Shown here piece after piece: positions 2,818-63,556 of a stretch of DNA of 64,000 bases. The notes under the pieces are model-generated. The model saw only the letters and a list, made by a program, of their open reading frames with translations. It had not been told where the DNA came from and did no database searches. The stretch comes from a phage, in sequence record OZ346175.1, one strand, 5' to 3'. The stretch's first letter is position 1. Every line of letters starts with the position of its first letter. The translations under genes and the position numbers were made by a program.

Positions 2818-2892
2818 AAACTTTTAAGCATTTCTTTAAGGAAGTCTGCATGAGCATCTTGTAAGAAGATATCAATCATAGTTAATCACCTA

Positions 2893-3252: not shown

Positions 3253-3253
3253 A

Positions 3254-3553: not shown

Positions 3554-3758
3554 CTTTCTTCTTCCGTTTGCGTGAAGTGTCAATCAATGAATCTATGTTT
3601 GTAGCTCTAACCTTTTCACGTTCATCGTTAAGATAATCATCAAGAGCCTTTTCAATCTGTGAATCATCTTGACAGATGACTGTAAAGACTGTAAAGCCAT
3701 CTGTATCATCAATTATCTTACCATAACCGCTTCTGGGATGTAACTTTTTAAGAGCCAT
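3546..3758 (-). CDS. hypothetical protein
   Basis: 70-aa ORF, basic C-terminus. Confidence 0.4.
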   Translation of the reverse strand: MALKKLHPRSGYGKIIDDTDGFTVFTVICQDDSQIEKALDDYLNDEREKVRATNIDSLIDTSRKRKKKDE

Positions 3759-4143
3759 ACCAAATACCTGTGCAGCTTCTGTTTTCTAAGAAATACTCAA
3801 CACCGTACATAGCTTTTTGCATCAAATCTTCTTTAAACTGGATACGATGATTTAGCATAGCCTGTACATCAATATCTTCATGGTGCTTCTCTTTAATGTT
3901 TGCAGATTGCAGGAAATACTCTGCAAGAACACGATACTGATAGTCAGTTACTTTATCAGTCATCTCTGTCAAAGACTCTTCAGAGATTGGTTTAAGTAGC
4001 TCACCATTAGCTAGAGCAACACCTTTAACAATCTGGCAAGTGTCTTCTGGAACACCTGATAAGTCCACATTTGGAAGTTCTGTTGCATTAACTGGTAAAT
4101 TCATTGCCATAACCATTGCAGCAGCTAATAAAACCTTTTTCAT
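3748..4143 (-). CDS. hypothetical secreted protein
   Basis: 131 aa with N-terminal signal-peptide-like segment MKKVLLAAAMVMAMNLPVNA. Confidence 0.5.
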   Translation of the reverse strand: MKKVLLAAAMVMAMNLPVNATELPNVDLSGVPEDTCQIVKGVALANGELLKPISEESLTEMTDKVTDYQYRVLAEYFLQSANIKEKHHEDIDVQAMLNHRIQFKEDLMQKAMYGVEYFLENRSCTGIWYGS

Positions 4144-8228: not shown

Positions 8229-8496
8229 CATCTGGTCAATACACTCGCAAGGTGTACCAGTTCTCTTATGAACTTCTCCGCATTTCTACGGAGTGTCGGA
8301 CTATATCACGTAGTAGTAATACTACCGTTGCACTTGGGAATGGTCATTGGCTTACCACCCTACTCTACTCAGTTCATACGTTAAGTATGCTTTTCGATAG
8401 TCTCTGAACGTTCCTCTTAAGAGGCTTCGCTGCTGATTACCATATCTTTACAGACTTAGGCTTCCAGCAATTCACAACGTTTTACATGCGCCACTG
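8229..8496 (-). mobile_element. group I self-splicing intron (ORF-less) in DNA polymerase gene
   Basis: Minus-strand P (aattgctggaag), Q (aatcagcagcg), R (gttcagagacta) and S (gatatagtcc) elements; exon ends in U pairing with gcgcau guide just inside intron; intron ends in G; splicing restores IYALLFGAGDEK. Confidence 0.85.
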
Positions 8497-10639
8497 ACGC
8501 ATAAATGCCATTTTTGGCTTTCTTACGACCTTTTGTAATCTCGTGGAGAAGTTCCTCATCCTGTGTCTCCCTACAACGAACAATATCTTCTTCCTTGTTC
8601 AGACCAAAGTAAATACTGTTCAGTGTATGCGCATCAGTCCCTGTGTAGACTTCATAGAGGTCGTTCTCAGCATCATAACGAAGATACTTGTCAGTTTCTG
8701 GATTAAGGTGCTTATCAAGATGTTTGCAATAATATCTCCCATCTTCTTGCTTGGTAAATTCTACTGACTCTTTACCTTCAGTTACTGCTTTAGTGAACTC
8801 TTTATCACCCATAAAGTTACACAGTAAAACAAGCTGTGCAGAGTTCTGGTCAACAGAAACAATGTTAGTCCCCTCTTCACAAATCCACACTGCCCTCATA
8901 GGTGCTCCATAGACAGCAGCACCAGACGGTACGTTTACAATACCATATTGTGTCATACGTCCAGTTGAAGTACCAAACACCATTGCACCAGCACTAAGGC
9001 GACCATCAGGACGAATCTGGTTCAACCAACCTTTTTCATCATCCTTTGAGTTCTCAATAGTTCTGCGTCGGTGCATCAAAGTATAGTACTTAGCAATCTT
9101 CTGTCCAAGCTCACCTTCAATCGTATCATAAGATGATTCAGTAAGTTTTGGTGAAGTACGGATTAAGCAAGGCTCAAGCAAATCTGTGTACTTCTTCACA
9201 GACCAGTTATGCTCAATGTACTGTACACCTTCATGTTCAACATAACTCAAACCACACCGCTCAACCATTTCCTGCCACTTAGGATGTTTTGTAATCATCT
9301 TTTTATTGTCTTTGAAACGACAAACTTTGACAGGGCGACCATCTGAATCTTTCTTGTAGTTCCAGTCATCTGGAATCCAACCAACTGATTTCAAGTAGTC
9401 TTTAACAACTGCTACCTGAGTCATATGAGAAACTTCAAACTCAATTGGTGTATATGGTGCATCAATCAAACCTGTGTAGCGACTTGACTCAAGTTCAAAG
9501 TGATTGACAACGTGACTGTTATAGTACTTCACAGTCTTGACTGTTTTTACTGGTTTCCAGTCTTTGCATTTTTTGCCAATCTTTGCATTCAACTCGTTGC
9601 AGATTGCACGAGCATCCTTCATCGCTACAAAACCCTCTTTGTACTCTTCACCAGTTACAGAGTTGGTTGGTGTATAGCAATTTCTCTTTTCAATGTTAAA
9701 AATCTTTGTAGTTGGCTTACCAAATGGCTTGATTTCATATGTCTGCATCTCACCATTACGTACCTGCTGACGATACTTTGTCTTAGGGTACTTGGTAATT
9801 CTTTTCAGTCCATCTGCATGACCAAATGCTTCAACATACTCATTCCAAGCTTTTGCAAACTCTTCTCCAGTGACTTTACCTTTGGTCTTAATAGTTGGAG
9901 GTAGATGTGGTTCAACCTCTGAAGCAAGCTCATTAGTCAACTTGTCAAGCTCCTTTACATGGAACTCCATAAGCTCTTTATCAGCTTTCCAACCATTGAT
10001 AGCTTGTTGACTCATCCAGAAAGATGTTTCTTTAGCTCGCATGTAAGTTTCATAAGTGTCTATGCCACACTTCTTAAGCTTGAGATACTCGTTATCAAGT
10101 GCCCGTTTAGTTTTGGCGTTAATACGGATATCTTCTACAACACGAGTGAAGATTTCTGCATTCCACACACCCCAATGCTCAATCTCTGGCTTACGAACAC
10201 CAACACGAGCACCCCATGCAGCCAAGCCATGAGCACCTTTATAACCCTTTGGAGTTGGTCTATCCATCCACTGAACACGAGACTGGATAAGAGAATCCTG
10301 AAAGAAATTACTCCACGGCTTACACTTTGGATTATCAAAGTTCCATAAATCAGGTGCAATGTGATTAAAAACCCACCAGTCATAACCGAGACCGTTATGG
10401 ATGCAAAGACGTTTTGCCTTTAACGCAAATTCAACACCTTCACGTAAGCCACCCTTAATGTACTTGGTATACTTGTGACCGAGGATAGGTTCATCCGTAA
10501 AGACCCATACAGGTGGCTCTTCATCGTCAGATTTATAGTCTGCGAAAGCCATTACGTGCACTTTAGTGAACTCAAGGAGTAAACCATCAGTTTCTGTATC
10601 ACCAACTAAATGTAAGTTTTTAAAATCTACGTTTTCCAT
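8497..10639 (-). CDS. DNA polymerase, family A (T7 gp5-like), exon 1
   Basis: N-terminal 3'-5' exonuclease motif DTETDG, T7 gp5-like blocks, ends in first half of motif B (RKKAKNGIYA); start at MENVDF with GAGGGAG RBS. Confidence 0.9.
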
Positions 10640-10702
10640 TTTTACTCCCTCTAAAATCATTAACCTCATACATTACTGCAAAAAATTATAAAAAGCAAGT
10701 TG

Positions 10703-32389: not shown

Positions 32390-32404
32390 AAGTATATGAT
32401 AAGA

Positions 32405-32425
32405 GGCTCCTACGGGAGCCTTTTT
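32405..32425 (+). terminator. rho-independent terminator
   Basis: ggctcc-tacg-ggagcc hairpin followed by T-run. Confidence 0.6.
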
Positions 32426-32964: not shown

Positions 32965-33711
32965 ATGCGCATGGTAAATGACCACGCAGAAGTGATTAAG
33001 AGTTCAACTTCTTTAGAGACGTCTCAAGCACAGATTACAATGACACCTGAGATGTTCAGCCTTTTGAGTTCTGGTGTATACACCTTTAAAGAAAGGGCAG
33101 TGATTCGTGAACTGTCATGTAACGCAGTAGATGCTCAGAAAGAAGCTGGAAAAGAGAACATCCCATTCCATGTGCATTTACCTACTCGTTTTGAGCCTTA
33201 CTTCGAAGTTCGTGATTTTGGAACTGGATTGACTCATGATAAAGTAATGAGTTTGTATCTGAACTATGGGGCTTCTACGAAGAATGACTCCAATGATTAC
33301 ATTGGTGCAATGGGTATCGGCTCAAAATCCCCATTTGCAATTGCTCAGTCATTCACAGTATCTAGCTATGTTGATGGTGTTGTTAATAAGTACTCTGTTT
33401 ACCTTGAGAATGGTATCCCTCAAGTAACTAAGCTTACTACCAACCCAACAAATGAACCCAATGGTTTAGCTGTACGTGTGGCAGTTGCTGACCATCGTAT
33501 TTCAAAGTTCTTTGAAGAGGCTGGTCACGTATACTCATACTTTGCTGTAAAACCAGAAAGTAACATTGTATATGATGATGTATTAGCAGATATGAATGTC
33601 ATTGCCCGTGAAGAGGGTGTTTATGATGCTATGATTCATAAGCAAAGCTGGCGTTCTAGTGGCAACAGGACAGAGTTTAATGTGGTGATGGGTAATATTG
33701 CCACCCAGTGA
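32965..33711 (+). CDS. rIIA: rIIA-like protein, N-terminal GHKL ATPase part
   Basis: GHKL-type motifs (ELSCNAVDAQ; RDFGTGLT; GAMGIGSKS); ends 4 nt into the next ORF, which continues the rIIA-sized product. Confidence 0.55.
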   Translation: MRMVNDHAEVIKSSTSLETSQAQITMTPEMFSLLSSGVYTFKERAVIRELSCNAVDAQKEAGKENIPFHVHLPTRFEPYFEVRDFGTGLTHDKVMSLYLNYGASTKNDSNDYIGAMGIGSKSPFAIAQSFTVSSYVDGVVNKYSVYLENGIPQVTKLTTNPTNEPNGLAVRVAVADHRISKFFEEAGHVYSYFAVKPESNIVYDDVLADMNVIAREEGVYDAMIHKQSWRSSGNRTEFNVVMGNIATQ

Positions 33712-35330
33712 ACATGGAAGCATTACTTGGTGATGATTTCTTCAAAGTCTTGCCAGAGTTTTTCCGTAGGAGCGTAGACCTTGTAAACATCTACATGCCT
33801 ATTGGTTCAGTTGCTATTGCAGCTTCTCGTGAAGCATTGCAGATGAATGACACGACAAAAAATGTTATCATTGAGGCTACTAAAAAGATAACTGAAGCCA
33901 TTACAAAGGATGTTATCAAGAAAGTTAATAGCCAACCTACACTCATGGATGCTGCACAGGCTTATGCTGAGTTACGTTTGAACTCACGAGAGATGTTTAA
34001 TGCTGTGTGTCCAAAGCTAGAGTGGGGTGGCGTTAAGCTTGATTCTCTGGAAGAAGAATTGCTAAACATTCGTCGTGGAATTATCTACGCAGAAGACGGC
34101 TCAGTCATTTACGAACGTGACGGTAAAGGTAATATTAAGGTTGATAGGAACGGGAACAATATCCCTAAAGTAGATTATCTTTATGACCCAGTTGCTTATG
34201 TCAAGTTTAACTCTTTAGAGAGTAAGATTCGTGCAACAGCACTATCCTACACTCAAGAGGCGAGCATGTTCAACATCTTTGGTGCAATGCGCAAAAGCCA
34301 GATTGGACAGTTTTTGTTCGTGATTAATGACCGTCGAAATAAAAATGGCACTGAGAAGACTGTTGGGCGTAACCAAATCTTGCGTGGTGCATGTCGAGAC
34401 TATGCAAGTGAGTCTAGTCTGTTTCACAGATACAATGGTATTGTCTTTGTATTCTCGACTGAAAAAGAGTTAGATGACTTAATCAATCTGCACAAACTTG
34501 ATAAAAGCTTGCTAAAGATTGTGAAAATGTCTGATAAGGAACACCATTACCAGCGTAAAGAAGCTGTAAGAGGTGTTGTAAAACTCTGGAAAGCTGTTCC
34601 AGCAGAAGGTGTAGCCTCCTACAAAGAGGTGTCAGAGGACTTAGACACAATTGAAGAACCTCAGCTTTACATTAAGGCAATTGGTGACACAGTTGATGGC
34701 GAATGTTTTTGCTCATCTCCAGAAGATGTAGCTAAGTCAGTTGCCAATGTCATTGAAAAGACAGTCTATGTTTTCCGAAAAGCAAATTGGAAAAAGATAC
34801 CAGAAGACTGGATTGAAGTAGATGAGAAGCTCTTGAGCAACAGCTTAACTAATGTTCACTGGATTAATCATAACAGGTATATGACACGTATCTATATGAA
34901 TGGTGTCCTAGACCTGACAAGCAGTTGGATTATTGCCAGAAACTTTACGTTCAATAACAGGAAGATTTCTCGTGGCTATTGCTATTCACGGGATACAAAC
35001 AAAACTATCTTCCTAGAAGGTAATGAAGAGGCTGTAGAGGCAATGTTTGGTAAAATCCAGTATGTTGCTGCACCATTTGCATACACTTACACTATTAGTG
35101 TGTTGAAAACTTTGAAAGATTGTCTTGACAACGATACAAAGCTTTACAAGAAAATTAAGAAAGCTGGTGACCGTATGGTTATTAAGGTGACAAACTACCT
35201 TTCAAAAAGAAAACAAGAAAACTTCTTGCTTTCCCATTTAGATTGGAATAAAGTGTCACCCATCGAAGTGAGTAAGTTCTTAGGTTTTGATGTGAAGTGT
35301 GTTCCAGAAGGAACTACAGTTTACGATTAA
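33708..35330 (+). CDS. rIIA: rIIA-like protein, C-terminal part
   Basis: 540-aa ORF starting at GTG 33708 (ATG at 33714) overlapping the upstream stop; followed by rIIB-like gene. Confidence 0.5.
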   Translation: MNMEALLGDDFFKVLPEFFRRSVDLVNIYMPIGSVAIAASREALQMNDTTKNVIIEATKKITEAITKDVIKKVNSQPTLMDAAQAYAELRLNSREMFNAVCPKLEWGGVKLDSLEEELLNIRRGIIYAEDGSVIYERDGKGNIKVDRNGNNIPKVDYLYDPVAYVKFNSLESKIRATALSYTQEASMFNIFGAMRKSQIGQFLFVINDRRNKNGTEKTVGRNQILRGACRDYASESSLFHRYNGIVFVFSTEKELDDLINLHKLDKSLLKIVKMSDKEHHYQRKEAVRGVVKLWKAVPAEGVASYKEVSEDLDTIEEPQLYIKAIGDTVDGECFCSSPEDVAKSVANVIEKTVYVFRKANWKKIPEDWIEVDEKLLSNSLTNVHWINHNRYMTRIYMNGVLDLTSSWIIARNFTFNNRKISRGYCYSRDTNKTIFLEGNEEAVEAMFGKIQYVAAPFAYTYTISVLKTLKDCLDNDTKLYKKIKKAGDRMVIKVTNYLSKRKQENFLLSHLDWNKVSPIEVSKFLGFDVKCVPEGTTVYD

Positions 35331-35409: not shown

Positions 35410-36492
35410 ATGACTACTAAAACTAAAGCACAGATTGACGCAGAAATTTACAAACTGGTTAAAGAAGGTAAGCTGACTAAAACAGCTATTGCACAGAAAT
35501 TTAATACTTCAACCCGTTCAGTCGGTCGTGCTGTAGAGCGTCATGAAGCAATATTAAAAGGGAATAAGAAGGTAACTTCTACACCAGCTACGAAGACTTT
35601 GAAGCAAGTTGCTAAGACCTTTAAAAAGAAAGCTGACAAACCAGTTGAAAAGGTTGTTAAAGATTCTGTACAGAAAGCTCCAGTAAATAAACTGCACGAA
35701 GCTATGCAGAAAGATGACAAGATTGAGTACATGATTACTGGTGACTCTGTAATTATGACTTACGGTTCAGAATCTGAAATTGTTGAGTCTACTCATCCGA
35801 ACTATCAAGAGATTGTAGTTCATGTTGTGAAAGGTGAGTTCAAGAAAGCCTTTGAACTGATGAACATTCGTAAGTCTATCGAAAACTTCACGCAGGGAGC
35901 TATCACAATCAAAGGTGATAAGCTATTCTACGGTGCTGTTGAGATGCGTTCTACTCTGGTTGACCGTATACTTCACATGATGAAAACTGGTGATAAAGGT
36001 TTTGAACGACTTGTAATGTTCTTCGAAAAACTGATGGAAAACCCATCTAAAGATTCTGTAGAACAACTTTGGGGATTCATATCTCACCTTGATGTTGAAA
36101 TTGATGAAGAAGGCTACATCATTGGTTGGAAGAAAGTCTCTACTCGTGAAGGCAAGCTGGTTGACTCCCGCACCTGCAAAGTACCTAATGATTTGGGTAA
36201 CATTGTAGAAATGCCACGTTGGATGGTTGATAATAACCGTAACGTGACTTGCTCTCAAGGTCTTCACGTTGGTGCTTGGGATTATGTTCGTTACTTCTCA
36301 GGTGATACAATTCTGAAGGTTCGTGTCCATCCACGAGACGTTGTATCCGTACCAACTGATTACAACGATATGAAGATGCGTTCGTCTCGTTATGAAGTTG
36401 CAGCAATCGTTGATAATCAACGTAAAGTGCTGAAAGAATGGGATGGCAAGACTGAAGCTTTGCATGACGTAAACGTGAAATCTAATAAGTAA
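35410..36492 (+). CDS. rIIB: rIIB-like protein
   Basis: 360 aa; C-terminal blocks (LFYGAVEMRSTLVDRIL; CSQGLHVG; VHPRDVVSVPTDYNDMKMR) match recalled T4 rIIB. Confidence 0.7.
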   Translation: MTTKTKAQIDAEIYKLVKEGKLTKTAIAQKFNTSTRSVGRAVERHEAILKGNKKVTSTPATKTLKQVAKTFKKKADKPVEKVVKDSVQKAPVNKLHEAMQKDDKIEYMITGDSVIMTYGSESEIVESTHPNYQEIVVHVVKGEFKKAFELMNIRKSIENFTQGAITIKGDKLFYGAVEMRSTLVDRILHMMKTGDKGFERLVMFFEKLMENPSKDSVEQLWGFISHLDVEIDEEGYIIGWKKVSTREGKLVDSRTCKVPNDLGNIVEMPRWMVDNNRNVTCSQGLHVGAWDYVRYFSGDTILKVRVHPRDVVSVPTDYNDMKMRSSRYEVAAIVDNQRKVLKEWDGKTEALHDVNVKSNK

Positions 36493-36501
36493 TTTCTTAA
36501 A

Positions 36502-36526
36502 AGGCTGCTTCGGCGGCCTTTTTTAT
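36502..36526 (+). terminator. rho-independent terminator
   Basis: aggctgc-ttcg-gcggcct hairpin followed by T-run. Confidence 0.55.
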
Positions 36527-38845: not shown

Positions 38846-39111
38846 CAGAGAACGAAGATACTTTCTATGTAGAAGGGTACTTACTGCTACCACGACCAAA
38901 AGAAACTTATATGCGGGTTGATTTCTCACCAACCATTATGGATAACGTGATGTGTCATATCTTTATGCAAGGTGTCACAGCACAACTTAAGCATGTTGGT
39001 AAAGAGTGCAAAATAAAGGTTGACACTCATCCAGAAATCAAAGAGAATCACTACACATGGTTCTTACCAGACTCTAAAGAAATCTTAGCAGTTCTTAAAA
39101 CGAGGAAGTAG
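38842..39111 (+). CDS. hypothetical protein
   Basis: 89-aa ORF. Confidence 0.4.
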   Translation: MTENEDTFYVEGYLLLPRPKETYMRVDFSPTIMDNVMCHIFMQGVTAQLKHVGKECKIKVDTHPEIKENHYTWFLPDSKEILAVLKTRK

Positions 39112-39113
39112 CT

Positions 39114-39368
39114 ATGCAGATTAATGGAAGAGACTTTGTAGCCGTTTACTATGATAACGATAAAGAAGTTGGTGTAGCACAGGTAACCTATGGCAATGGT
39201 AAGTGGCTATATGGAACAATCGCAGTAGTAGGAACAAGAAGTGATACAAAAACTTTTAAAGATTGTGTTGACCTTCTTGAAGAATCCATCCACAATCATT
39301 GGTGTCTGATATGGATGACTGACAATGAAGTGATGGAACGTTTCAAAAAAAAATTGATATCAACATAG
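39114..39368 (+). CDS. hypothetical protein
   Basis: 84-aa ORF. Confidence 0.4.
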   Translation: MQINGRDFVAVYYDNDKEVGVAQVTYGNGKWLYGTIAVVGTRSDTKTFKDCVDLLEESIHNHWCLIWMTDNEVMERFKKKLIST

Positions 39369-39416
39369 ACAGCATTGAGCATGTTGACTTGTATGAACTG
39401 ACTGAGAAGGTAAATT

Positions 39417-39644
39417 ATGAAAGTAATTCTAGCCAGAGATAAAAAGACACGGAAAATTATCCGGTCAGCAGTATTTATTGGAAGAAATGAAGTGATTCCT
39501 TTTACAGCAAATGATGCGATAGTCTACAGGAAAAAATTAGCATTCAGTTATTGCTTACGTGGCTTTATCTCCCAGCCATTGGAAGACTTTAAAAGTCGTT
39601 GTGGTAAAGGTATCATCATTCAAGAGGCAATTATCAATGGCTGA
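39417..39644 (+). CDS. hypothetical protein
   Basis: 75-aa ORF. Confidence 0.35.
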   Translation: MKVILARDKKTRKIIRSAVFIGRNEVIPFTANDAIVYRKKLAFSYCLRGFISQPLEDFKSRCGKGIIIQEAIING

Positions 39645-58227: not shown

Positions 58228-58304
58228 CTCTGTTTAGCTCAGCTTGGTAGAGCGTTCCGTTTGGGGCGGTAAGGCCGGAGGTTCAAGTCCTCCAACAGAG
58301 ACCA
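58228..58304 (+). tRNA. tRNA-Pro (anticodon TGG)
   Basis: Hand cloverleaf: acceptor ctctgtt/aacagag, anticodon loop ttTGGgg, T-arm ggagg-ttcaagt-cctcc, CCA encoded. Confidence 0.7.
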
Positions 58305-58311
58305 AATTAAT

Positions 58312-58389
58312 GTTCCAGTAGACAAAATGGTAAAGTCACCACTCTTTCAAAGTGGATATCTGAGGGTTCAAATCCCTTCTGGAACGCCA
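58312..58389 (+). tRNA. tRNA-Glu (anticodon TTC)
   Basis: Acceptor gttccag/ctggaac, anticodon stem ccact/agtgg, loop ctTTCaa, T-loop ttcaaat, CCA encoded. Confidence 0.6.
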
Positions 58390-58396
58390 GTTTTGA

Positions 58397-58469
58397 CAGA
58401 AGACCAATTACAGCAAACTTAATCTTATTCATCTGAAGGTAAATCGGACAAAGAAGAGATTTGGTCTGG
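58397..58469 (+). ncRNA. structured element A (cagaagacc...ggtctgg stem family)
   Basis: 5' cagaagaccaattacagcaa and 3' tggtctgg; stem agacca/tggtct; family member without tRNA-like module. Confidence 0.35.
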
Positions 58470-58480
58470 TCATTAAGAAT

Positions 58481-58557
58481 TGCGGGTATAGAGAAAGGGC
58501 GTCTCACATGTCTCATTAGCATGGTATCGGCAGGTTCGACTCCTGCACCCGCCTCCA
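58481..58557 (+). tRNA. tRNA-Met or Ile2 (anticodon CAT), non-canonical acceptor
   Basis: D-stem gaga/tctc, anticodon stem catgt/gcatg, loop ctCATta, T-arm gcagg-ttcgact-cctgc; acceptor pairing needs one mismatch. Confidence 0.5.
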
Positions 58558-58563
58558 AATTTG

Positions 58564-58624
58564 CAGAAGACCGTATTCAGCAACAAAATACTTTTTTGCG
58601 GATAAAAGAAAAAACACGGTCTGG
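58564..58624 (+). ncRNA. structured element B (cagaagacc...ggtctgg stem family)
   Basis: cagaagaccgtattcagcaa ... cggtctgg; stem agaccg/cggtct (compensatory relative to A). Confidence 0.35.
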
Positions 58625-58635
58625 CAATGTATTAA

Positions 58636-58712
58636 GGTTAGGAAGCACATAAGGTATGTGCGGTCGCCTGTTAAGCGAATGGCACAGGGTTCGAATCCCT
58701 GACTAACCGCCA
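58636..58712 (+). tRNA. tRNA-Asn (anticodon GTT)
   Basis: D-stem gcac/gtgc, anticodon loop ctGTTaa, T-arm caggg-ttcgaat-ccctg, CCA encoded; position 8 is A (atypical). Confidence 0.55.
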
Positions 58713-58720
58713 AATTAAAT

Positions 58721-58808
58721 GTGTCGTTATCCCGTAGATGGTAGCGGTGGGGACTGTAAATCCCTTGTCATTGAGACTCGGTAGGTTCGACTCCTACACG
58801 GCACACCA
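58721..58808 (+). tRNA. tRNA-Tyr (anticodon GTA)
   Basis: 88 nt with long variable arm; anticodon stem gggga/tccct, loop ctGTAaa; T-arm gtagg-ttcgact-cctac; CCA encoded. Confidence 0.7.
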
Positions 58809-58813
58809 ATAAA

Positions 58814-58890
58814 GGCTATGTAGTTTAACTGGAGAAAATACTCCCCTGTCACGGGAGATGATGTGAGTTCAAGTCTCATCGTAGCCGCCA
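58814..58890 (+). tRNA. tRNA-Asp (anticodon GTC)
   Basis: Acceptor ggctatg/cgtagcc, anticodon stem ctccc/gggag, loop ctGTCac, T-loop ttcaagt, CCA encoded. Confidence 0.75.
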
Positions 58891-58951
58891 ATTTTGAGAG
58901 GGCTATTTAGCCCCTCCCTTAAAGAGTTCTTACGAGTATTCTTTAAGGGAG

Positions 58952-59035
58952 CAGAAGACCAAATACAGCAAGAATGTATGAAATTTCAAGCCAATTTAAT
59001 TTTGAAAATTTAAAACTTGGTCTGGCTCAACAAAT
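58952..59035 (+). ncRNA. structured element C (cagaagacc...ggtctgg stem family)
   Basis: cagaagaccaaatacagcaa ... ttggtctgg; stem agaccaa/ttggtct. Confidence 0.35.
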
Positions 59036-59038
59036 TTA

Positions 59039-59170
59039 CAGAAGACCGTTTACAGCAAAACTTAAACAATCTATTTCTCCGGTAAAGAAAAGGCGAAGGT
59101 TCGATTCCTTCACTCGGCAGATGTCGAGTTGGTGTAATGGTAGCACTTAAGATGATAAACAACGGTCTGG
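59039..59170 (+). ncRNA. Y-RNA-like element D with circularly permuted tRNA-like module
   Basis: 8-bp closing stem agaccgtt/aacggtct; internally T-arm gaagg-ttcgatt-ccttc, acceptor-like stem actcggc-agat-gtcgagt closed by a loop, then D-arm gtg-taatggtag-cac. Confidence 0.5.
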
Positions 59171-59171
59171 T

Positions 59172-59315
59172 AATTATCTTTGTAGATAAGTTATTAAGCT
59201 TACCTGTGAGTATGCGACCACAAAGGGTGAAAGGGTAAATTCTAGATTTAAACCCAACAAGGCACATCGCTACAGACCTTAAGCAAGTCTGGGTAGCTTA
59301 TCTACAAAGATAATT
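59172..59315 (+). ncRNA. structured element closed by 19-bp perfect inverted repeat
   Basis: aattatctttgtagataag (59172-59190) exactly complementary to cttatctacaaagataatt (59297-59315); internal cagacc...gtctgg hairpin. Confidence 0.4.
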
Positions 59316-59319
59316 TAAT

Positions 59320-59395
59320 GGAAGTGTAGCAGAATGGTGATGCGGCAGACTTTTAATCTGACAGGCGATGGGTTCGAATCCCTCCACTTCTACCA
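59320..59395 (+). tRNA. tRNA-Lys (anticodon TTT)
   Basis: Acceptor ggaagtg/cacttct, anticodon loop ctTTTaa, T-loop ttcgaat (T-stem needs a bulge), CCA encoded. Confidence 0.55.
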
Positions 59396-59399
59396 ATAT

Positions 59400-59476
59400 G
59401 GTTCAGTCGCAGATAAGGTAATGCAAGGGTCTCATAAGCCCTATGAATGTTGGTTCGATTCCCATCTGAACCTCCA
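59400..59476 (+). tRNA. tRNA-Met (anticodon CAT)
   Basis: Acceptor ggttcag/ctgaacc, anticodon stem agggt/gccct, loop ctCATaa, T-loop ttcgatt, CCA encoded. Confidence 0.6.
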
Positions 59477-59477
59477 A

Positions 59478-59553
59478 GCTGGTATAGTTAAGAAGGTTAT
59501 AACACTCCCCTGATAAGGGAACATCGGTGGTTCGATTCCACCTACCAGTACCA
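59478..59553 (+). tRNA. tRNA-Ile (anticodon GAT)
   Basis: Acceptor gctggta/taccagt, D-stem gtta/taac, anticodon loop ctGATaa, T-arm ggtgg-ttcgatt-ccacc, CCA encoded. Confidence 0.75.
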
Positions 59554-59568
59554 ATTTCAATAAAGTTG

Positions 59569-59597
59569 TTGACATTGAGATGTGACTACTTTATAGT
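59569..59597 (+). promoter_or_regulatory. sigma70-type promoter internal to tRNA cluster
   Basis: TTGACA-N17-TATAGT. Confidence 0.5.
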
Positions 59598-59798
59598 AAC
59601 CTTAGTTTTCGTTGCGTAGCGTCTATTTTGCAAATTTAAAATAAATGCAAACGACAATGTTTTTCTGGCAGTAGCTTGATAGGCTAAACACCAGTGAGGT
59701 CTTCCAATCCCTCATCAAAGAATTTGGCGTACTCGCCCACGGTATGATTAATAAGGTGGGCATCTTTAAGGGCTTTCTAAGAGAGTCTTTAAAGATAA

Positions 59799-59876
59799 TG
59801 CACCCTTAGTTCAATTGGATAGAGCAACGGTCTTCTAAATCGTTAGTTACAGGTTCGAATCCTGTAGGGTGTACCA
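59799..59876 (+). tRNA. tRNA-Arg (anticodon TCT)
   Basis: Acceptor gcaccct/agggtgt, D-arm gttc-aattggata-gagc, anticodon stem acggt/atcgt, loop ctTCTaa, T-arm acagg-ttcgaat-cctgt, CCA encoded. Confidence 0.75.
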
Positions 59877-60018
59877 AATAGTTAGCAGATTACTTAGACG
59901 GCCTTAGCGGGTCTTCCTGTAGGGAGGTGGTCTGTATCTCATGTTTTCCAGAACATGTAAATAATCTGAGAAGAAGCTTGACAGTGTTGAGATAACAGGG
60001 TAAGCTTCGAATTATAAT

Positions 60019-60101
60019 ATGGGACGATGTTAAGACTCTAAGGCATGAGCAACGGCCTCCAAAACCGTTTCAAAGGGGTTCAACTCCTCCGTCCCATGCC
60101 A
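60019..60101 (+). tRNA. tRNA-like gene, probable Trp (anticodon CCA), atypical D region
   Basis: Acceptor atgggac/gtcccat, anticodon loop ctCCAaa, T-loop ttcaact, CCA encoded; D region about 7 nt longer than canonical. Confidence 0.45.
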
Positions 60102-60114
60102 AAGTCTTATTAGG

Positions 60115-60202
60115 GGTAGGTAGCGGCTAATGGCAGCCAAACAGTCTTGAAAACTGTTGCCACTGTAGAGATACGGTGAGGGTTCGACTCCTTTACTTAC
60201 CG
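60115..60202 (+). tRNA. tRNA-Ser (anticodon TGA)
   Basis: 88 nt with long variable arm; anticodon stem acagt/actgt, loop ctTGAaa; T-arm gaggg-ttcgact-ccttt; CCA not encoded. Confidence 0.7.
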
Positions 60203-60458
60203 CCTAATAAGATTTACTCCGTCCATGCTTGTTCGCATTGTCGGTTTATCCCTCGTGTATTGTCGTACACTGTCAAAGCACCTAGTAGGTGTCACGGAGA
60301 AGAGATAATATCAAGCTCTCCAAAGGTTCTAGTCACCGGATTAAACAAGACTATGCAAAGACCTATTTAGGTCTTTTTAGAGGGCTTCTAAGGTTATTAG
60401 TCGCTTGTTGTGGAACCTTGTTGCTCAGGTTCTTAGAAGTTCTCTAAAAAGATTTAAT

Positions 60459-60536
60459 GGGAGATTGACGGTAATTGGTAAACCTACCATCCTTAGAAGT
60501 TGGTGTTTGAGGGTTCGAATCCCTTGTCTCCTACCA
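60459..60536 (+). tRNA. tRNA with apparent anticodon TAG (Leu-type) on short-variable-arm scaffold
   Basis: Acceptor gggagat/gtctcct, anticodon loop ctTAGaa, T-arm gaggg-ttcgaat-ccctt, A73, CCA encoded; no long variable arm. Confidence 0.45.
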
Positions 60537-60543
60537 AATTAAT

Positions 60544-60619
60544 GCAGGTGTAGCAAAATGGTTATGCGGCTGACTCTTAATCAGTAAGACGATGGGTTCA
60601 ATTCCCTCCACCTGTACCA
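60544..60619 (+). tRNA. tRNA-Lys (anticodon CTT)
   Basis: Paralog of 59320..59395; acceptor gcaggtg/cacctgt, anticodon stem gctga/tcagt, loop ctCTTaa, T-loop ttcaatt, CCA encoded. Confidence 0.6.
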
Positions 60620-60625
60620 GACATC

Positions 60626-60702
60626 GGGGTCATAGTTTATATGGTTAAAATTCGAGTTTTGCAAACTTGGGAACTGAGTTCAATTCTCAGTGACTCCACC
60701 AA
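60626..60702 (+). tRNA. tRNA-Ala (anticodon TGC)
   Basis: Acceptor ggggtca/tgactcc, anticodon stem cgagt/acttg, loop ttTGCaa, T-arm ctgag-ttcaatt-ctcag, CCA encoded. Confidence 0.7.
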
Positions 60703-60708
60703 TTAGTG

Positions 60709-60781
60709 CATCCATAGTTTAAACGGGAAAATTACAGTCTTCCAAACTGAGGTTGAGGGTTCGATTCCCTCTGGATGCTCC
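60709..60781 (+). tRNA. tRNA-Gly (anticodon TCC)
   Basis: Acceptor gcatcca/tggatgc, anticodon loop ctTCCaa, T-arm gaggg-ttcgatt-ccctc. Confidence 0.65.
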
Positions 60782-60796
60782 AAATTAAGGTGTGAT

Positions 60797-61210
60797 ATGA
60801 AAATATGCAGTACTTGCAGAATACCAAAAGATGAAAGCTTATTCCATAAGAATAAGAACAAGAAAGATGGTCTTCAAAGTCAATGCAAAGACTGTGCAAG
60901 ACTTCGTGATGCAAAGAGTTATCAAGCAAATGATAAAAGGAAAGAGGCTATTAAAAGCACTCGTAACTTCAAGAGAGAGTATAACAAGACTCTAGCTAGA
61001 AGGTACAAAGCTTTATGCAAATGTCATATATGTGGTGAGAAAGAACCAGTTGCATTGGATTTACACCATACAGACCCTTCCCAGAAAGATTTGAATCCTG
61101 CATCACTTTATTCATACTCCACAAAAAGATTAAAAGATGAAATCAGAAAGTGCATTGTCTTGTGCGCTAACTGTCACAGAAAAGTACATGCTGGTATCAT
61201 AAAAGTTTAA
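60797..61210 (+). CDS. HNH endonuclease inside tRNA cluster
   Basis: 137 aa; zinc-binding Cys pairs and HNH motif (LDLHHTDP...CANCHRKVH); flanked by tRNA genes. Confidence 0.75.
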   Translation: MKICSTCRIPKDESLFHKNKNKKDGLQSQCKDCARLRDAKSYQANDKRKEAIKSTRNFKREYNKTLARRYKALCKCHICGEKEPVALDLHHTDPSQKDLNPASLYSYSTKRLKDEIRKCIVLCANCHRKVHAGIIKV

Positions 61211-61211
61211 T

Positions 61212-61288
61212 GCTGCTTTCGTATAATTGGCTATTACACATCCCTTGTAAGGATGGAAATGCAGGTTCAAGTCCTGTGAGCAGCACCA
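61212..61288 (+). tRNA. tRNA-Thr (anticodon TGT)
   Basis: Acceptor gctgctt/gagcagc, anticodon stem catcc/ggatg, loop ctTGTaa, T-arm gcagg-ttcaagt-cctgt, CCA encoded. Confidence 0.75.
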
Positions 61289-61292
61289 ATTC

Positions 61293-61379
61293 AGAGGTCA
61301 AGTGAAAGACCGCTTTGAGTCAACTGAAGACCGTAACAAATCCCACGGAGTTGAGTTAGCGGCACAACTCCAGACCTCT
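61293..61379 (+). ncRNA. structured element E between tRNA genes
   Basis: Closing stem agaggtc/gacctct; internal hairpin ggagttg-agttagcggca-caactcc; two gaagacc motifs. Confidence 0.35.
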
Positions 61380-61384
61380 TTCAT

Positions 61385-61459
61385 ACTCGCTTAGTTTATA
61401 TGGTAAAACATCACCCTTACAAGATGAAGAAAAAGGTTCAAGTCCTTTAGTGAGTACCA
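61385..61459 (+). tRNA. tRNA-Val (anticodon TAC)
   Basis: Acceptor actcgct/agtgagt, D-stem gttt/aaac, anticodon loop ctTACaa, T-arm aaagg-ttcaagt-ccttt, CCA encoded. Confidence 0.7.
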
Positions 61460-61460
61460 T

Positions 61461-61538
61461 GTTCCAGTATCCCAATTGGCAGAGGATGCAAGCTCAAACC
61501 TTGTATTAGTGACGGTTCGAATCCGTCTTGGAACACCA
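61461..61538 (+). tRNA. tRNA with apparent anticodon CAA (Leu-type) on short-variable-arm scaffold
   Basis: Acceptor gttccag/ttggaac, anticodon stem gcaag/cttgt, loop ctCAAac, T-arm gacgg-ttcgaat-ccgtc, A73, CCA encoded. Confidence 0.45.
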
Positions 61539-61543
61539 ATTTT

Positions 61544-61619
61544 GCAGGATTAGTTCAAATGGATAGAGCAACAGTCTACGAAGCTGTTAATAGGGGTTCG
61601 AATCCCTTATCCTGCGCCA
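61544..61619 (+). tRNA. tRNA-Arg (anticodon ACG)
   Basis: Acceptor gcaggat/atcctgc, D-arm gttc-aaatggata-gagc, anticodon stem acagt/gctgt, loop ctACGaa, T-loop ttcgaat, CCA encoded. Confidence 0.75.
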
Positions 61620-61638
61620 ATTTAAAGAGGCTATTTAG

Positions 61639-62196
61639 ATGAGATATTTGAAGTATGCTTCATGGATTTTTTTAGCTTTGTTAGAGCCATTTGCAGCAAT
61701 CTTAGCAGTTATCTTAGCACCTTTTGTAGTTCCATTCTACAGTGAGAAGAAAGGACACTTACCTTTCGGGTTCAGATGGATGGAGACATATGACAACCCA
61801 ATTGATGGTGATGAAGGTCACGTTAAAAGATGGGCTAATATTAGATGGATTGGTAAACTAGGTGTCTACATGCAAAGAGTCGGATGGCTCTGGAGAAACA
61901 AAGCTTATAACTTCTCTTACCATGTATTAGGAAGAGATGTAAGAGATGTTACTAAGTGGAAAGGTAATATCAACGTAAGTTCTGACCCCGAAGATAATCA
62001 GACAGGTTATCTCCTAATGTGGAACAGTAATGCTTGGGGATTATTCGCTTTTATCCCATCAATTAAAATCTTTGGTAAACAATTTTACTGGAGAATTTAT
62101 ATTGGATGGAAACTAAAAAGTGTTGTCCCAGAAGAAAGAGCATTCTCAAGGGAAAGAGTTATGTTGGCATTCTTTATTCATCCACTGAGAAAGTAA
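61639..62196 (+). CDS. hypothetical membrane protein
   Basis: 185 aa; hydrophobic N-terminus (WIFLALLEPFAAILAVILAPFVVPF), Trp-rich; embedded in tRNA cluster. Confidence 0.5.
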   Translation: MRYLKYASWIFLALLEPFAAILAVILAPFVVPFYSEKKGHLPFGFRWMETYDNPIDGDEGHVKRWANIRWIGKLGVYMQRVGWLWRNKAYNFSYHVLGRDVRDVTKWKGNINVSSDPEDNQTGYLLMWNSNAWGLFAFIPSIKIFGKQFYWRIYIGWKLKSVVPEERAFSRERVMLAFFIHPLRK

Positions 62197-62204
62197 AGAT
62201 TTAA

Positions 62205-62280
62205 AGGGGATTAGTTTACAAGGTTAAAACCTCGGTCTTTGAAATCGAAGAAGTTGGTTCAATTCCAACATCCCCCGCCA
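62205..62280 (+). tRNA. tRNA-Gln (anticodon TTG)
   Basis: Acceptor aggggat/atccccc with unpaired 1:72, anticodon stem tcggt/atcga, loop ctTTGaa, T-arm gttgg-ttcaatt-ccaac, CCA encoded. Confidence 0.65.
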
Positions 62281-62282
62281 AT

Positions 62283-62361
62283 GCTCCATTACTCCAATTG
62301 GCAGAGAGGCCAGACTTAAAATCTGTGTTATGTATCGGTTCGAATCCGATATGGAGTACCA
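62283..62361 (+). tRNA. tRNA with apparent anticodon TAA (Leu-type) on short-variable-arm scaffold
   Basis: Acceptor gctccat/atggagt, anticodon loop ctTAAaa, T-arm atcgg-ttcgaat-ccgat, A73, CCA encoded; variable region 7 nt. Confidence 0.45.
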
Positions 62362-62366
62362 AATTT

Positions 62367-62442
62367 AGCGGTATAGCATAACTGGCAATGCAGCAGCCTC
62401 TGAAGCTGTCCTATTAAGGTTCAAATCCTTATGCCGCTGCCA
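62367..62442 (+). tRNA. tRNA-Gln (anticodon CTG)
   Basis: Acceptor agcggta/tgccgct, D-stem gcat/atgc, anticodon stem gcagc/gctgt, loop ctCTGaa, T-arm taagg-ttcaaat-cctta, CCA encoded. Confidence 0.65.
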
Positions 62443-62473
62443 CTTCTAAGGATTCTTGCGAGAGTCCTTAAAT

Positions 62474-62549
62474 GTGGCCTTATCATAAACGGTAATGACC
62501 CATGCTGTGAACATGGTCTATACGGGTTCAAATCCCGTAGGTCACCCCA
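62474..62549 (+). tRNA. tRNA-His (anticodon GTG)
   Basis: Acceptor gtggcct/aggtcac, D-stem tcat/atga, anticodon stem ccatg/catgg, loop ctGTGaa, T-arm acggg-ttcaaat-cccgt, CCA encoded. Confidence 0.75.
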
Positions 62550-62554
62550 ATTTA

Positions 62555-62631
62555 TAGTCCAAGTAGCTTATATGGTTAAAGCGCGTGTCTGAAAAACATG
62601 AGAAGAGGGTTCAAATCCCACTGGACTACCA
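62555..62631 (+). tRNA. tRNA-Phe (anticodon GAA)
   Basis: Acceptor tagtcca/tggacta, D-stem gctt/aagc, anticodon stem cgtgt/acatg, loop ctGAAaa, T-loop ttcaaat; 3' end register ambiguous. Confidence 0.55.
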
Positions 62632-62647
62632 ATTTCAAAGGTGCTTA

Positions 62648-63382
62648 ATGAAAGAGATGACAGAACAAGGTAAGGAGATTTTTAATCTCTTAAAAACTGG
62701 TAAAGGGTTCTCTAACCCGCTTATTACTGGTGCAGCAGTTCTCGGTGGAACCGTAGCTGCTTCTACATCACTTGTAAGCTCTATTAGTTCTGTAACAGAC
62801 CCTACAATGAAAGAGAAACTTGTTGCTGCTGGACTTACAACAGTCCTTCTAAACAGCTTTACAACAAGCCTTACAAGCACTACAGCAACTACTAAAACTC
62901 TGACAGACTACGGTCAAAAATCTATTGATGAGTTTTCATCACGTATGCAGGTAGCAAAGGGGTATTCCAATGTTATGGGTGCAGCAGGAGAACAAGTTGG
63001 TTGTACACCATTCAGTGGTATCATGGGTGTTGCTACAGAGTATGGTCAAAAAGCTATTGACATGATGAACAGTACACTAGATAGTGTTAATGGTGTGTTA
63101 AGTGACTTACAAGATGCTATTGATAAGGGTCTTGATACTGTTTCTGATTTAGCTAACCAAGCTGTCAGTAAGATTAATGAAGGTATTTCAAAGATTACAG
63201 CTTATGCAGATGAAGTTGTGCAGATGATTGAAGAAGAAGCTGCCCCTATTGCAGAGTACCTTAAAACGAATATCAATGGGTTCTTAGCAGGTATCTTACC
63301 AGACTGGTTTGACGATGCTTGTAAAACTGGTGTGATTGACACTATTGCAACACCAGAAATGAAGAGCGCATTACAGAAATAA
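62648..63382 (+). CDS. hypothetical Ser/Thr-rich protein
   Basis: ORF 62585..63382 trimmed to MKEMTEQ to clear tRNA-Phe; Ser/Thr-rich low-complexity N-terminal half. Confidence 0.45.
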   Translation: MKEMTEQGKEIFNLLKTGKGFSNPLITGAAVLGGTVAASTSLVSSISSVTDPTMKEKLVAAGLTTVLLNSFTTSLTSTTATTKTLTDYGQKSIDEFSSRMQVAKGYSNVMGAAGEQVGCTPFSGIMGVATEYGQKAIDMMNSTLDSVNGVLSDLQDAIDKGLDTVSDLANQAVSKINEGISKITAYADEVVQMIEEEAAPIAEYLKTNINGFLAGILPDWFDDACKTGVIDTIATPEMKSALQK

Positions 63383-63383
63383 T

Positions 63384-63476
63384 GGAAGATTAACCCTAAA
63401 AGGTAAGGGAGCAGTTTGCTAAACTGCCAGTAGCTGAGAAATCGGTGTACCAGTTCAAGTCTGGTATCTTCCTCCA
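63384..63476 (+). tRNA. tRNA-Ser (anticodon GCT)
   Basis: 93 nt with 21-nt variable arm; acceptor ggaagat/atcttcc, D-stem ccc/ggg, anticodon stem gcagt/actgc, loop ttGCTaa, T-arm accag-ttcaagt-ctggt, CCA encoded. Confidence 0.75.
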
Positions 63477-63480
63477 ATTT

Positions 63481-63556
63481 GAATCCGTGACAGAAATGGA
63501 TATGTACCTGTCTGCAAAACAGGTTTATAAGGGTTCGAGTCCCTTCGGATTCTCCA
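63481..63556 (+). tRNA. tRNA-Cys (anticodon GCA)
   Basis: Acceptor gaatccg/cggattc, anticodon stem cctgt/acagg, loop ctGCAaa, T-loop ttcgagt, CCA encoded. Confidence 0.75.

What the first reader, a model, noticed from the sequence alone, without database searches (positions are those of the whole stretch)
32965..35330. rIIA-like gene present as two ORFs overlapping by 4 nt
The GHKL-ATPase part (248 aa) ends at TGA 33709-33711 and the remainder (540 aa) starts at GTG 33708 or ATG 33714 in another frame; together they approximate rIIA length, and an rIIB-like gene follows. This could be a genuine two-gene arrangement, a frameshift, or a sequencing error.
Basis: seen in the sequence. Interest (0 to 1): 0.45.

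Follow-up and report, generated by a model that had tools for sequence, protein, structure and literature searches.

The report
rIIA gene broken by one-base deletion
The two overlapping ORFs are one ordinary phage rIIA gene that has lost a single T, so this is a recent knockout mutation or a base-calling error, not a two-gene design or a recoding signal.

Summary
ORF1 (32965-33711, 248 aa) and ORF2 (33708 or 33714 to 35330, 540 or 538 aa) overlap in GTGA, and rIIB follows.

The window is a Felixounavirus (Felix O1-like coliphage). Its relatives encode rIIA as one 788-aa ORF, which equals 248+540. The split comes from one missing T between 33702 and 33703 (GCC^ACC; relatives have GCC TAC CC). 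This T is the first base of the invariant Tyr247 codon.

No other sequence examined carries the deletion, in any collection searched. With the T restored, the protein is 100% identical to the closest relative, LNA1 (13 synonymous and 0 non-synonymous differences), so the lesion is very recent or artefactual.

- The break lies inside a confidently modelled beta-hairpin, next to invariant residues, not in a linker.
- ORF2 has no ribosome-binding site.
- There is no slippery site or homopolymer at the break.
- Other database records with a split rIIA break at different positions.

The adjacent rIIB also carries a private 34-nt deletion. rIIA and rIIB are dispensable on laboratory hosts in the related phage Bas63. 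I therefore favour a real rII-defective variant (about 0.55) over a consensus error (about 0.33). Only reads or Sanger sequencing can decide.

This is ordinary and of low interest.

The parts
32965..35330 (+). Whole rIIA locus: one gene of the RIIA family (788 codons when intact), here interrupted by a 1-nt deletion
   Evidence: Collinear match of both ORFs to phrog_612. 99.3-99.4% DNA identity to the intact LNA1 gene, with one gap.
32965..33711 (+). 5' fragment ORF (248 aa). Residues 1-246 are authentic rIIA (Hsp90-like GHKL N-domain plus the start of the next domain), followed by out-of-frame Thr-Gln and TGA. Strong SD (AAGAGGAAA) upstream.
   Evidence: SD duplex -6.0 kcal/mol.
33702..33703 (+). 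Deletion junction. One T is missing between these bases (relatives: GCC TAC CCn; window: GCC ACC C). It removes the first base of the invariant Tyr247 codon and is not in a homopolymer.
   Evidence: Alignments. Invariant G243 and Y247 in 36 rIIA proteins.
33708..35330 (+). 3' fragment ORF (540 aa from GTG 33708, 538 aa from ATG 33714), equal to rIIA residues 249-788. The GTG and ATG are simply the Val249 and Met251 codons of the intact gene. No RBS of its own.
   Evidence: SD duplex -3.7 kcal/mol (badly spaced) for GTG and +0.4 for ATG, against -5.1 to -7.4 for neighbouring real starts.
35410..36492 (+). rIIB homologue, 360 aa instead of 369. The C-terminal 17 aa (VIVGTAGELISQRKREI) are replaced by 8 out-of-frame aa (DVNVKSNK).
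36466..36467 (+). Junction of a private 34-nt deletion near the 3' end of rIIB
   Evidence: All best hits among 191 phage records match in two pieces spanning 115 nt for the 81-nt query, so they carry the 34 nt.
36499..36522 (+). Intrinsic-terminator-like hairpin plus T-run closing the rIIA-rIIB unit

Best explanation
This is a single canonical Felixounavirus rIIA gene carrying a very recent, private one-base deletion, and I take the deletion to be a real spontaneous mutation. The lost T is the first base of the Tyr247 codon. Translation from the normal rIIA start therefore ends two codons later. This yields a 248-aa fragment holding the ATP-binding N-domain but lacking the rest of the Hsp90-like protein, including the invariant I280/G281/R289/E290 block. 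The downstream 540-codon ORF is the out-of-frame remainder. It has no RBS, so at most it gets weak termination-reinitiation at the overlapping GTG or the ATG 3 nt after the stop. The neighbouring rIIB also carries a private 34-nt deletion. The phage is therefore most likely an rII-defective variant that is viable on permissive hosts. It is predicted to be sensitive to defences that RIIA/RIIB counter (QatABCD for the related Bas63; RexAB for T4).

Shown: the deletion, its uniqueness, its recency, its position in conserved and structured sequence, and the absence of an RBS or slippery site. Inferred: that it is real rather than a consensus error, and that function is lost.
For: - The missing T is the only difference in length from four relatives, and the only gap in an 8.1-kb block aligned to LNA1 at 97.9% identity.
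- The deletion allele was absent wherever I could check. The 60 best of 154 INPHARED junction matches all carry the T. There were 0 hits in IMG/VR, against 6 for the intact pattern. There were 0 hits in metagenome and genome contigs.
- The restored protein is identical to LNA1 rIIA, with 13 synonymous and 0 non-synonymous codon differences. Against UAB_Phi87 the counts are 95 and 18. The gene was therefore under purifying selection until very recently.
- G243, Y247, I280, G281, R289 and E290 are invariant across 36 rIIA proteins down to 24% identity.
- Residue 247 lies in strand E245-249 of a beta-hairpin, pLDDT about 83.
- There is no RBS for ORF2, and no promoter-like site scoring above 9/12 on the + strand in the 600 nt before it.

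For a real mutation rather than an error:
- The site is not a homopolymer. All nine homopolymers of 5 or more bases in rIIA have the same length as in LNA1.
- rIIB, 2.8 kb away, carries a private 34-nt deletion, which base-calling errors do not produce.
- In Bas63, a Felixounavirus, the RIIA and RIIB genes (g85, g84) can each be deleted. The deletions matter only on a qatABCD host, with a 1e4-1e5 drop in plating efficiency (bioRxiv 10.1101/2024.10.10.617714).
- ULIM9's only frameshift in 45 kb is in rIIA.
- An independent Logan contig has both an rIIA 1-nt deletion and an rIIB 13-nt deletion, while its neighbouring genes are intact.
Against: - No reads are available.
- The window has two more private frameshifts in conserved small ORFs: T5->T4 at about 2821, and an A-run lengthened by 2 to A9 at 39345.
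- Both sites are also hit in MET-P1-301, an assembly with 24 frameshift sites in 50 kb. The source consensus may therefore not be error-free.
- Zero non-synonymous change is what an artefact would also give.
- The altered rIIB tail lies beyond the profile-matched core (residues 3-338), so rIIB may still work. That weakens the 'double mutant' argument.
- The enrichment argument (2 of 4 private frame-disrupting lesions in about 6% of the sequence, binomial P about 0.02 by my own arithmetic) is post hoc.
Confidence: 0.55

Rival explanations
1. Sequencing or consensus artefact. The phage has an intact 788-codon rIIA, and the deposited or assembled sequence simply dropped one T.
For: - The restored gene encodes a protein identical to LNA1 rIIA.
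- The allele is unique among all sequences searched.
- The window has two other private frameshifts at homopolymers, and these coincide with error sites of the error-laden MET-P1-301 record.
- Split rIIA annotations in other records arise from single-base differences at scattered positions: A5->A4 in MET-P1-301 and ULIM9, plus EC6 and ST11. One metagenome contig shows rIIA shattered into eight small ORFs.
Against: - The missing base is flanked by C and A, not in a run. Systematic consensus errors concentrate in homopolymers, and none of the nine runs of 5 or more bases in rIIA is affected.
- The overall indel load of the window is low: 3 coding frameshift sites in 64 kb, against 24 in 50 kb for a truly error-laden record.
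- The neighbouring 34-nt rIIB deletion cannot be a base-calling error.
Confidence: 0.33
2. The deletion is real but function is retained. The two chains are both made, with ORF2 translated by termination-reinitiation at the GTGA overlap or the ATG 3 nt downstream, and they reassemble into a working split rIIA.
For: The stop and the candidate starts overlap or lie within 3 nt. From general knowledge, this geometry permits translational coupling without a strong SD.
Against: - There is no SD.
- The cut removes invariant Tyr247 and lies inside a beta-strand of a confidently folded region, not in a linker.
- It separates the ATP-binding domain from the invariant 280-290 block.
- No relative has this arrangement.
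- No selection has had time to act on it.
Confidence: 0.08
3. A conserved two-gene architecture, or programmed recoding (a -1 ribosomal frameshift, transcriptional slippage or a hop) that produces full-length rIIA.
For: Only the -1 frame relationship and the short overlap.
Against: - Relatives are in frame, so nothing is conserved to recode.
- The 16-nt window between the upstream -1-frame stop (TAA 33693-33695) and TGA 33709 contains no X XXY YYZ heptamer and no run longer than CCC.
- None of the P-site codons GCC, ACC or CAG can re-pair in the -1 frame.
- Rfam finds no element there.
- ORF2 has no RBS.
Confidence: 0.02

Closest known systems
Intact Felixounavirus rIIA, e.g. UAB_Phi87 Phi87_63 (YP_009150114, 788 aa), LNA1, and Bas63/JohannRWettstein g85
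   Same: Same gene, same position (NAMPT, two small ORFs, rIIA, rIIB), and the same length when the T is restored. Amino-acid identity to LNA1 is 100%.
   Different: The window lacks one T in codon 247, so the gene reads as 248 + 540 codons.
Classical T4 rII frameshift (r) mutants (Benzer; Crick, Barnett, Brenner and Watts-Tobin 1961)
   Same: A single-base deletion in rIIA gives premature termination. The locus is dispensable on permissive hosts and needed against an abortive-infection system. This rests on my own knowledge, and is summarised in bioRxiv 10.1101/2025.10.21.683753 and 10.1101/2021.03.08.434280.
   Different: A different phage family. The phenotype is untested here. The known counter-defence target in this genus is QatABCD (Bas63), not demonstrably RexAB.
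Phage contingency loci, e.g. the A6 run in T4 rIIA (bioRxiv 10.1101/2025.10.21.683753)
   Same: A frameshift that switches rIIA off. The A5->A4 events in ULIM9 and MET-P1-301 rIIA, and the A9 run at 39345 in this window, are of that slippage type.
   Different: The lesion studied here is not in a repeat (GCC-T-ACC). It is therefore not a high-frequency reversible switch.
Other database records with a split rIIA: ULIM9 OQ850288, MET-P1-301 PV700625, EC6 JX560968, ST11 MF370225, and Logan contig SRR27009557_3065
   Same: rIIA is annotated or called as 2-3 ORFs because of small indels.
   Different: Each break is at a different position (alignment columns 919 and 1499; residue 293 in the Logan contig). 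None is at codon 247, so the split is not inherited or conserved.
Hsp90 / HtpG / TRAP1 (GHKL chaperone ATPases)
   Same: The predicted fold of intact rIIA aligns over about 590-700 columns with full-length Hsp90s (E about 1e-17). A profile hit to the TRAP1 N-domain has E 3.5e-5.
   Different: Sequence identity is only 11-14% and TM-scores are low (0.3-0.48) because the domain arrangement differs. No chaperone activity is known for rIIA. A sequence search with the 264-346 segment found no Hsp90.

Membership tests
RIIA (T4-type rIIA, PHROG 612) | Full-length collinear similarity to the RIIA profile | tested here: met
   ORF1 matches profile positions 1-239 (E 3.6e-112) and ORF2 matches 250-716 (E 3.8e-66). 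The intact LNA1 protein matches 1-716 (E 9e-188).
RIIA (T4-type rIIA, PHROG 612) | N-terminal GHKL (Bergerat-fold) ATPase domain | tested here: met
   Homologues carry PF13589/PF02518. Profile hit to the TRAP1 N-domain, E 3.5e-5. Foldseek hits to Hsp90s, E about 1e-17. Pfam on the window ORF alone is sub-threshold (E 0.049, 14.5 bits against a cut-off of 26.4).
RIIA (T4-type rIIA, PHROG 612) | Adjacent downstream rIIB partner gene | tested here: met
   35410-36492 matches RIIB PHROGs, E 9e-89 to 1e-25.
RIIA (T4-type rIIA, PHROG 612) | One uninterrupted reading frame | tested here: not met
   The window has 248 + 540 codons in two frames. Relatives have 788. This is a damaged member of the family, not a different family.
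RIIA (T4-type rIIA, PHROG 612) | Function: counters abortive-infection or membrane-targeting defence (RexAB, QatABCD) | not testable with these tools
   Experimental only. Shown for Bas63 g85/g84 in bioRxiv 10.1101/2024.10.10.617714.
Genuine two-gene (split) rIIA | The split is shared by related phages | tested here: not met
Genuine two-gene (split) rIIA | The downstream gene has its own ribosome-binding site | tested here: not met
Genuine two-gene (split) rIIA | The split falls at a domain boundary or variable linker | tested here: not met
   It removes invariant Tyr247 and lies inside beta-strand 245-249 (pLDDT about 83). The conserved N-terminal module runs to about residue 320-330.
Programmed -1 ribosomal frameshift | Slippery heptamer X XXY YYZ in the overlap, conserved together with the two-frame layout | tested here: not met
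   Sequence 33693-33711. Relatives are in frame. No Rfam element.
Phage contingency locus (homopolymer SSR of 6 bases or more) | The indel lies within a homopolymer tract | tested here: not met
   The context is GCC[T]ACC. The only A6 run in the gene (33857) is unchanged.
Intron- or intein-interrupted gene | Inserted element between the two coding parts | tested here: not met
   The window differs from the intact gene by 1 nt only. Rfam finds a group I intron elsewhere (8276-8559, in the DNA polymerase gene) but nothing here.

The most novel reading that the evidence does not exclude
rII lesions may be recurrently selected, not merely tolerated, in Felix O1-like phages. This window has rIIA delta-T plus rIIB delta-34. 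An independent Logan contig has rIIA delta-T plus rIIB delta-13, with intact neighbours. ULIM9's only frameshift in 45 kb is in rIIA. If this pattern is real, loss of RIIA/RIIB would be adaptive under some condition. Examples would be faster lysis during plaque purification, or escape from a defence system that senses RIIA/RIIB. It would parallel the classical r phenotype in a different phage family.
Probability: 0.15. Interest if true: 0.4.

Novelty: already known. Interest (0 to 1): 0.12.

Why it matters
It matters mainly for annotation and for practical use of the phage. The two ORFs should be annotated as one disrupted rIIA (pseudogene or frameshifted), not as two genes.

If the deletion is real, this Felixounavirus isolate lacks a functional RIIA and perhaps RIIB. 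In the related phage Bas63, that loss costs 4-5 logs of plating efficiency on QatABCD-carrying hosts. This would be relevant if the phage is considered for therapy or biocontrol.

It does not reveal a new mechanism.

Tried and rejected
- **Exact-protein look-ups.** Look-ups of ORF1, ORF2 (ATG form) and the neighbouring NAMPT in the 153-billion-gene index found nothing. The source of the window and any sibling assemblies could not be identified.
- **Other collections.** Megablast of 33400-34000 against complete E. coli genomes and PLSDB plasmids gave no match.
- **Pfam.** Pfam gave no family above threshold for either ORF or for the intact protein.
- **First homologue search.** The search with ORF1 returned only short fragments from short contigs and was useless for a length survey. 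The search with the intact protein was informative.
- **Natural short rIIA.** I tested whether short GHKL-only hits in long contigs represent a natural split rIIA. P0034 sits in a contig where rIIA is shattered into about eight tiny ORFs, indicating an error-laden assembly. P0001 is another 1-nt deletion, this one destroying the invariant SRE motif. Neither supports a natural split.
- **Hsp90 catalytic loop.** A sequence search of the segment around the invariant AASRE motif against the PDB did not recover Hsp90. The resemblance to the Hsp90 catalytic loop (NLSRE, recalled from memory) remains an unverified lead.
- **Recoding mechanisms.** I considered and rejected programmed frameshifting, transcriptional slippage, translational bypass, suppressor tRNAs (a quadruplet decoder corrects insertions, not deletions), introns and inteins.

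Full report
**What is in the sequence**

- An ORF runs from ATG 32965 to TGA 33709-33711 (248 aa). It is preceded by a strong Shine-Dalgarno sequence (AAGAGGAAA).
- A second ORF lies in the -1 frame. It runs from GTG 33708 (540 aa) or ATG 33714 (538 aa) to 35330.
- The two overlap in GTGA.
- A 360-aa ORF follows at 35410-36492.

Against PHROGs, ORF1 matches positions 1-239 and ORF2 matches positions 250-716 of the same RIIA profile (phrog_612; E 4e-112 and 4e-66). The downstream ORF matches RIIB families (E 9e-89). Strong terminator-like hairpins at 32401-32424 and 36499-36522 bracket the unit.

**What the window is**

Megablast places the region in Felixounavirus, the Felix O1-like myoviruses of E. 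coli and Salmonella. There are 247 matching records, and the closest is Escherichia phage vB_EcoM_LNA1 at 99.3%. Across the 64 kb the window is a mosaic, 87-98% identical to LNA1.

In the RefSeq record UAB_Phi87, rIIA is one CDS of 2367 nt, or 788 codons. That equals 248+540.

**The cause of the split**

Aligning the junction with four relatives shows a single difference in length. Relatives read GGT AAY ATT GCN TAC CCN GTN AAC ATG GAA (…G N I A Y P V N M E…). The window lacks the T of TAC, between 33702 and 33703.
- After the deletion the frame reads Thr-Gln-stop.
- The 'start codons' of ORF2 are simply Val249 and Met251 of the intact protein.
- The deletion is the only gap in an 8.1-kb block aligned to LNA1.
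- The site (GCC-T-ACC) is not a homopolymer.

**Is the split shared by relatives?**

No.
- *Junction search.* A 71-nt query across the junction matches 154 phage records. None is 99% identical or better, and all 60 listed span 72 nt, so they carry the T.
- *Best full-length matches.* Of the 40 best, 38 have the intact length. The two exceptions, ULIM9 and MET-P1-301, have A5->A4 deletions at other positions (alignment columns 1499 and 919).
- *Spread sample.* 44 of 49 full-length rows have the intact length. The exceptions are MET-P1-301, EC6, GE_vB_B3, SflM_004 (+6) and ST11.
- *Pattern scans.* A degenerate pattern for the deletion allele finds nothing in IMG/VR, JGI metagenome contigs or GTDB genome contigs. 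The intact pattern finds 6 IMG/VR contigs, all single-frame in the portion held.
- *Protein database.* In the 5.8-billion-protein set, the 98%-identical cluster is 788 aa with 1411 members. All relatives down to 33% identity are 769-816 aa single proteins.

**Age of the lesion**

With the T restored, the window's rIIA differs from LNA1 at 13 codons, all synonymous. Against UAB_Phi87 there are 95 synonymous and 18 non-synonymous differences. The gene was therefore under purifying selection essentially up to the present. The frameshift is either very recent or not real.

**Where the break falls in the protein**

An alignment of 36 rIIA proteins (24-98% identity) has G243, Y247, I280, G281, R289 and E290 invariant. 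The deleted base belongs to the Tyr247 codon.

An AlphaFold2 model of the 98%-identical P0042 has mean pLDDT 84.6. It places residue 247 in strand 245-249 of a beta-hairpin, with local pLDDT about 83.

The model matches full-length Hsp90-family structures (TRAP1, HtpG, GRP94) with E about 1e-17. A family profile hits the TRAP1 N-domain (E 3.5e-5). The 'GHKL ATPase' label is therefore justified.

The 248-aa ORF is not a domain, however. The N-terminal module shared by several RIIA PHROG families runs to about residue 320-330. The cut separates the nucleotide-binding domain from the invariant 280-290 block.

**Can ORF2 be expressed on its own?**

Neighbouring genuine starts have anti-SD duplex energies of -5.1 to -7.4 kcal/mol at proper spacing. 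GTG 33708 has -3.7 kcal/mol with poor spacing, and ATG 33714 has +0.4.
- No + strand promoter-like site scoring above 9/12 lies in the 600 nt upstream.
- The 16-nt window in which a frame change would have to occur has no slippery heptamer and no run longer than CCC.
- Rfam finds no element there.

The only conceivable route to a C-terminal product is termination-reinitiation at the overlapping GTG or the nearby ATG. This is an inference, not a test.

**Real mutation or artefact?**

Points favouring an artefact:
- A tblastn scan with ORFs from LNA1 and UAB_Phi87 finds two other frameshifts in the window that both references agree on.
  - One is T5->T4 at about 2821, in the homologue of the 171-aa Phi87_113.
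  - The other is an A-run lengthened by 2 nt to A9 at 39345, in the homologue of Phi87_54.
- Both are private to the window.
- Both are also hit in MET-P1-301, whose first 50 kb contains 24 frameshift sites, including in the DNA polymerase.
- The window's consensus may therefore contain homopolymer errors. Alternatively, these may be slippage-prone sites of the contingency-locus type described for T-even phages (bioRxiv 10.1101/2025.10.21.683753).

Points favouring a real mutation:
- The rIIA lesion is not in a repeat, and all nine runs of 5 or more bases in rIIA are unaltered.
- rIIB carries a private 34-nt deletion at 36466/36467 that replaces its last 17 residues. All best matches among 191 records carry those 34 nt.
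- In Bas63, the rIIA and rIIB homologues (g85, g84) can each be deleted. They are needed only against QatABCD.
- ULIM9's single frameshift in 45 kb is in rIIA.
- A Logan contig from a more distant relative has a 1-nt deletion destroying the invariant SRE codons of rIIA. It also has a 13-nt deletion near the 3' end of rIIB, while the neighbouring ORFs are intact.

On balance I put a real, recent loss-of-function mutation at about 0.55 and an artefact at about 0.33. A functional split has about 0.08, and a conserved or programmed arrangement about 0.02.

**Comparison with what is known**

This is a damaged allele of a well-known gene. It is the same kind of lesion that made T4 rII famous. It is not a contingency-locus event, not a recoding site and not a domain-wise gene fission.

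The genuinely split gene in this window is the DNA polymerase, which is interrupted by a group I intron.

**Verdict**

This is ordinary, already known in kind, and of low interest. The locus should be annotated as one disrupted rIIA.

Noticed in passing
window 36466-36467 (rIIB, 35410-36492): A private 34-nt out-of-frame deletion near the 3' end of rIIB replaces the conserved tail VIVGTAGELISQRKREI with DVNVKSNK. All best-matching phage records carry the 34 nt. There is no obvious flanking microhomology.
   Followed up: yes
window 39345-39353 (+ strand ORF, about 39099-39440): An A9 run, the longest homopolymer in the window, where relatives have AAAAAGA. The net +2 nt frameshifts the homologue of the 118-aa Phi87_54. 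It is private among 14 matching records. The same site is frameshifted in MET-P1-301, so it is either a sequencing-error hot spot or a slippage-prone (contingency-type) tract.
   Followed up: partly
window 2821-2824 (- strand ORF, 2368-2879): A T5->T4 change (A5->A4 on the coding strand) splits the homologue of the conserved 171-aa Phi87_113 after residue 19. It is private among 152 records. The same site is hit in MET-P1-301.
   Followed up: partly
window 8276-8559 (- strand): A group I intron (Rfam RF00028, 64 bits, E 6e-14) interrupts the DNA polymerase gene. The 737-aa ORF at 8456-10669 covers residues 1-724 of the 909-aa UAB_Phi87 polymerase, and the remainder lies downstream. LNA1 shows the same split. 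This is a genuine split gene in the window.
   Followed up: partly
P0042 model (equivalent to window rIIA residues 280-300; window about 33802-33865): Intact rIIA is predicted to resemble full-length Hsp90/TRAP1/HtpG. Its invariant IGS…AASRExLQ block resembles, from memory, the Hsp90 middle-domain catalytic loop (NLSRE with the catalytic Arg). A sequence search did not confirm this.
   Followed up: partly
L016 (Logan SRR27009557_3065), 588-2956 and 3027-4085: A phage whose rIIA N-terminal half is about 80% identical has rIIA split 293+496 aa by a 1-nt deletion in the AASRE codons. It also has a 13-nt deletion (flanked by CGT repeats) near the 3' end of rIIB. Neighbouring ORFs are intact. This is a second rII double lesion.
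   Followed up: partly
L018 (PV700625.1, MET-P1-301), 1-50000: This GenBank record has 24 frameshift sites in 50 kb, affecting the DNA polymerase, NAMPT, PrsA, NrdB, thymidylate synthase and others. It is an error-laden assembly whose annotations, including its split rIIA, should not be trusted.
   Followed up: yes
PHROG phrog_609 ('RIIB lysis inhibitor', 1055 positions): The N-terminal part of this profile (positions 31-299) matches the rIIA GHKL domain, and its C-terminal part (755-1048) matches rIIB. This suggests that some phages encode a fused rIIA-N/rIIB-like protein, or that the family was mis-clustered.
   Followed up: no
window 58228-63553: A cluster of 24 tRNA genes on the + strand (Rfam tRNA hits), typical of Felix O1-like phages.
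   Followed up: no
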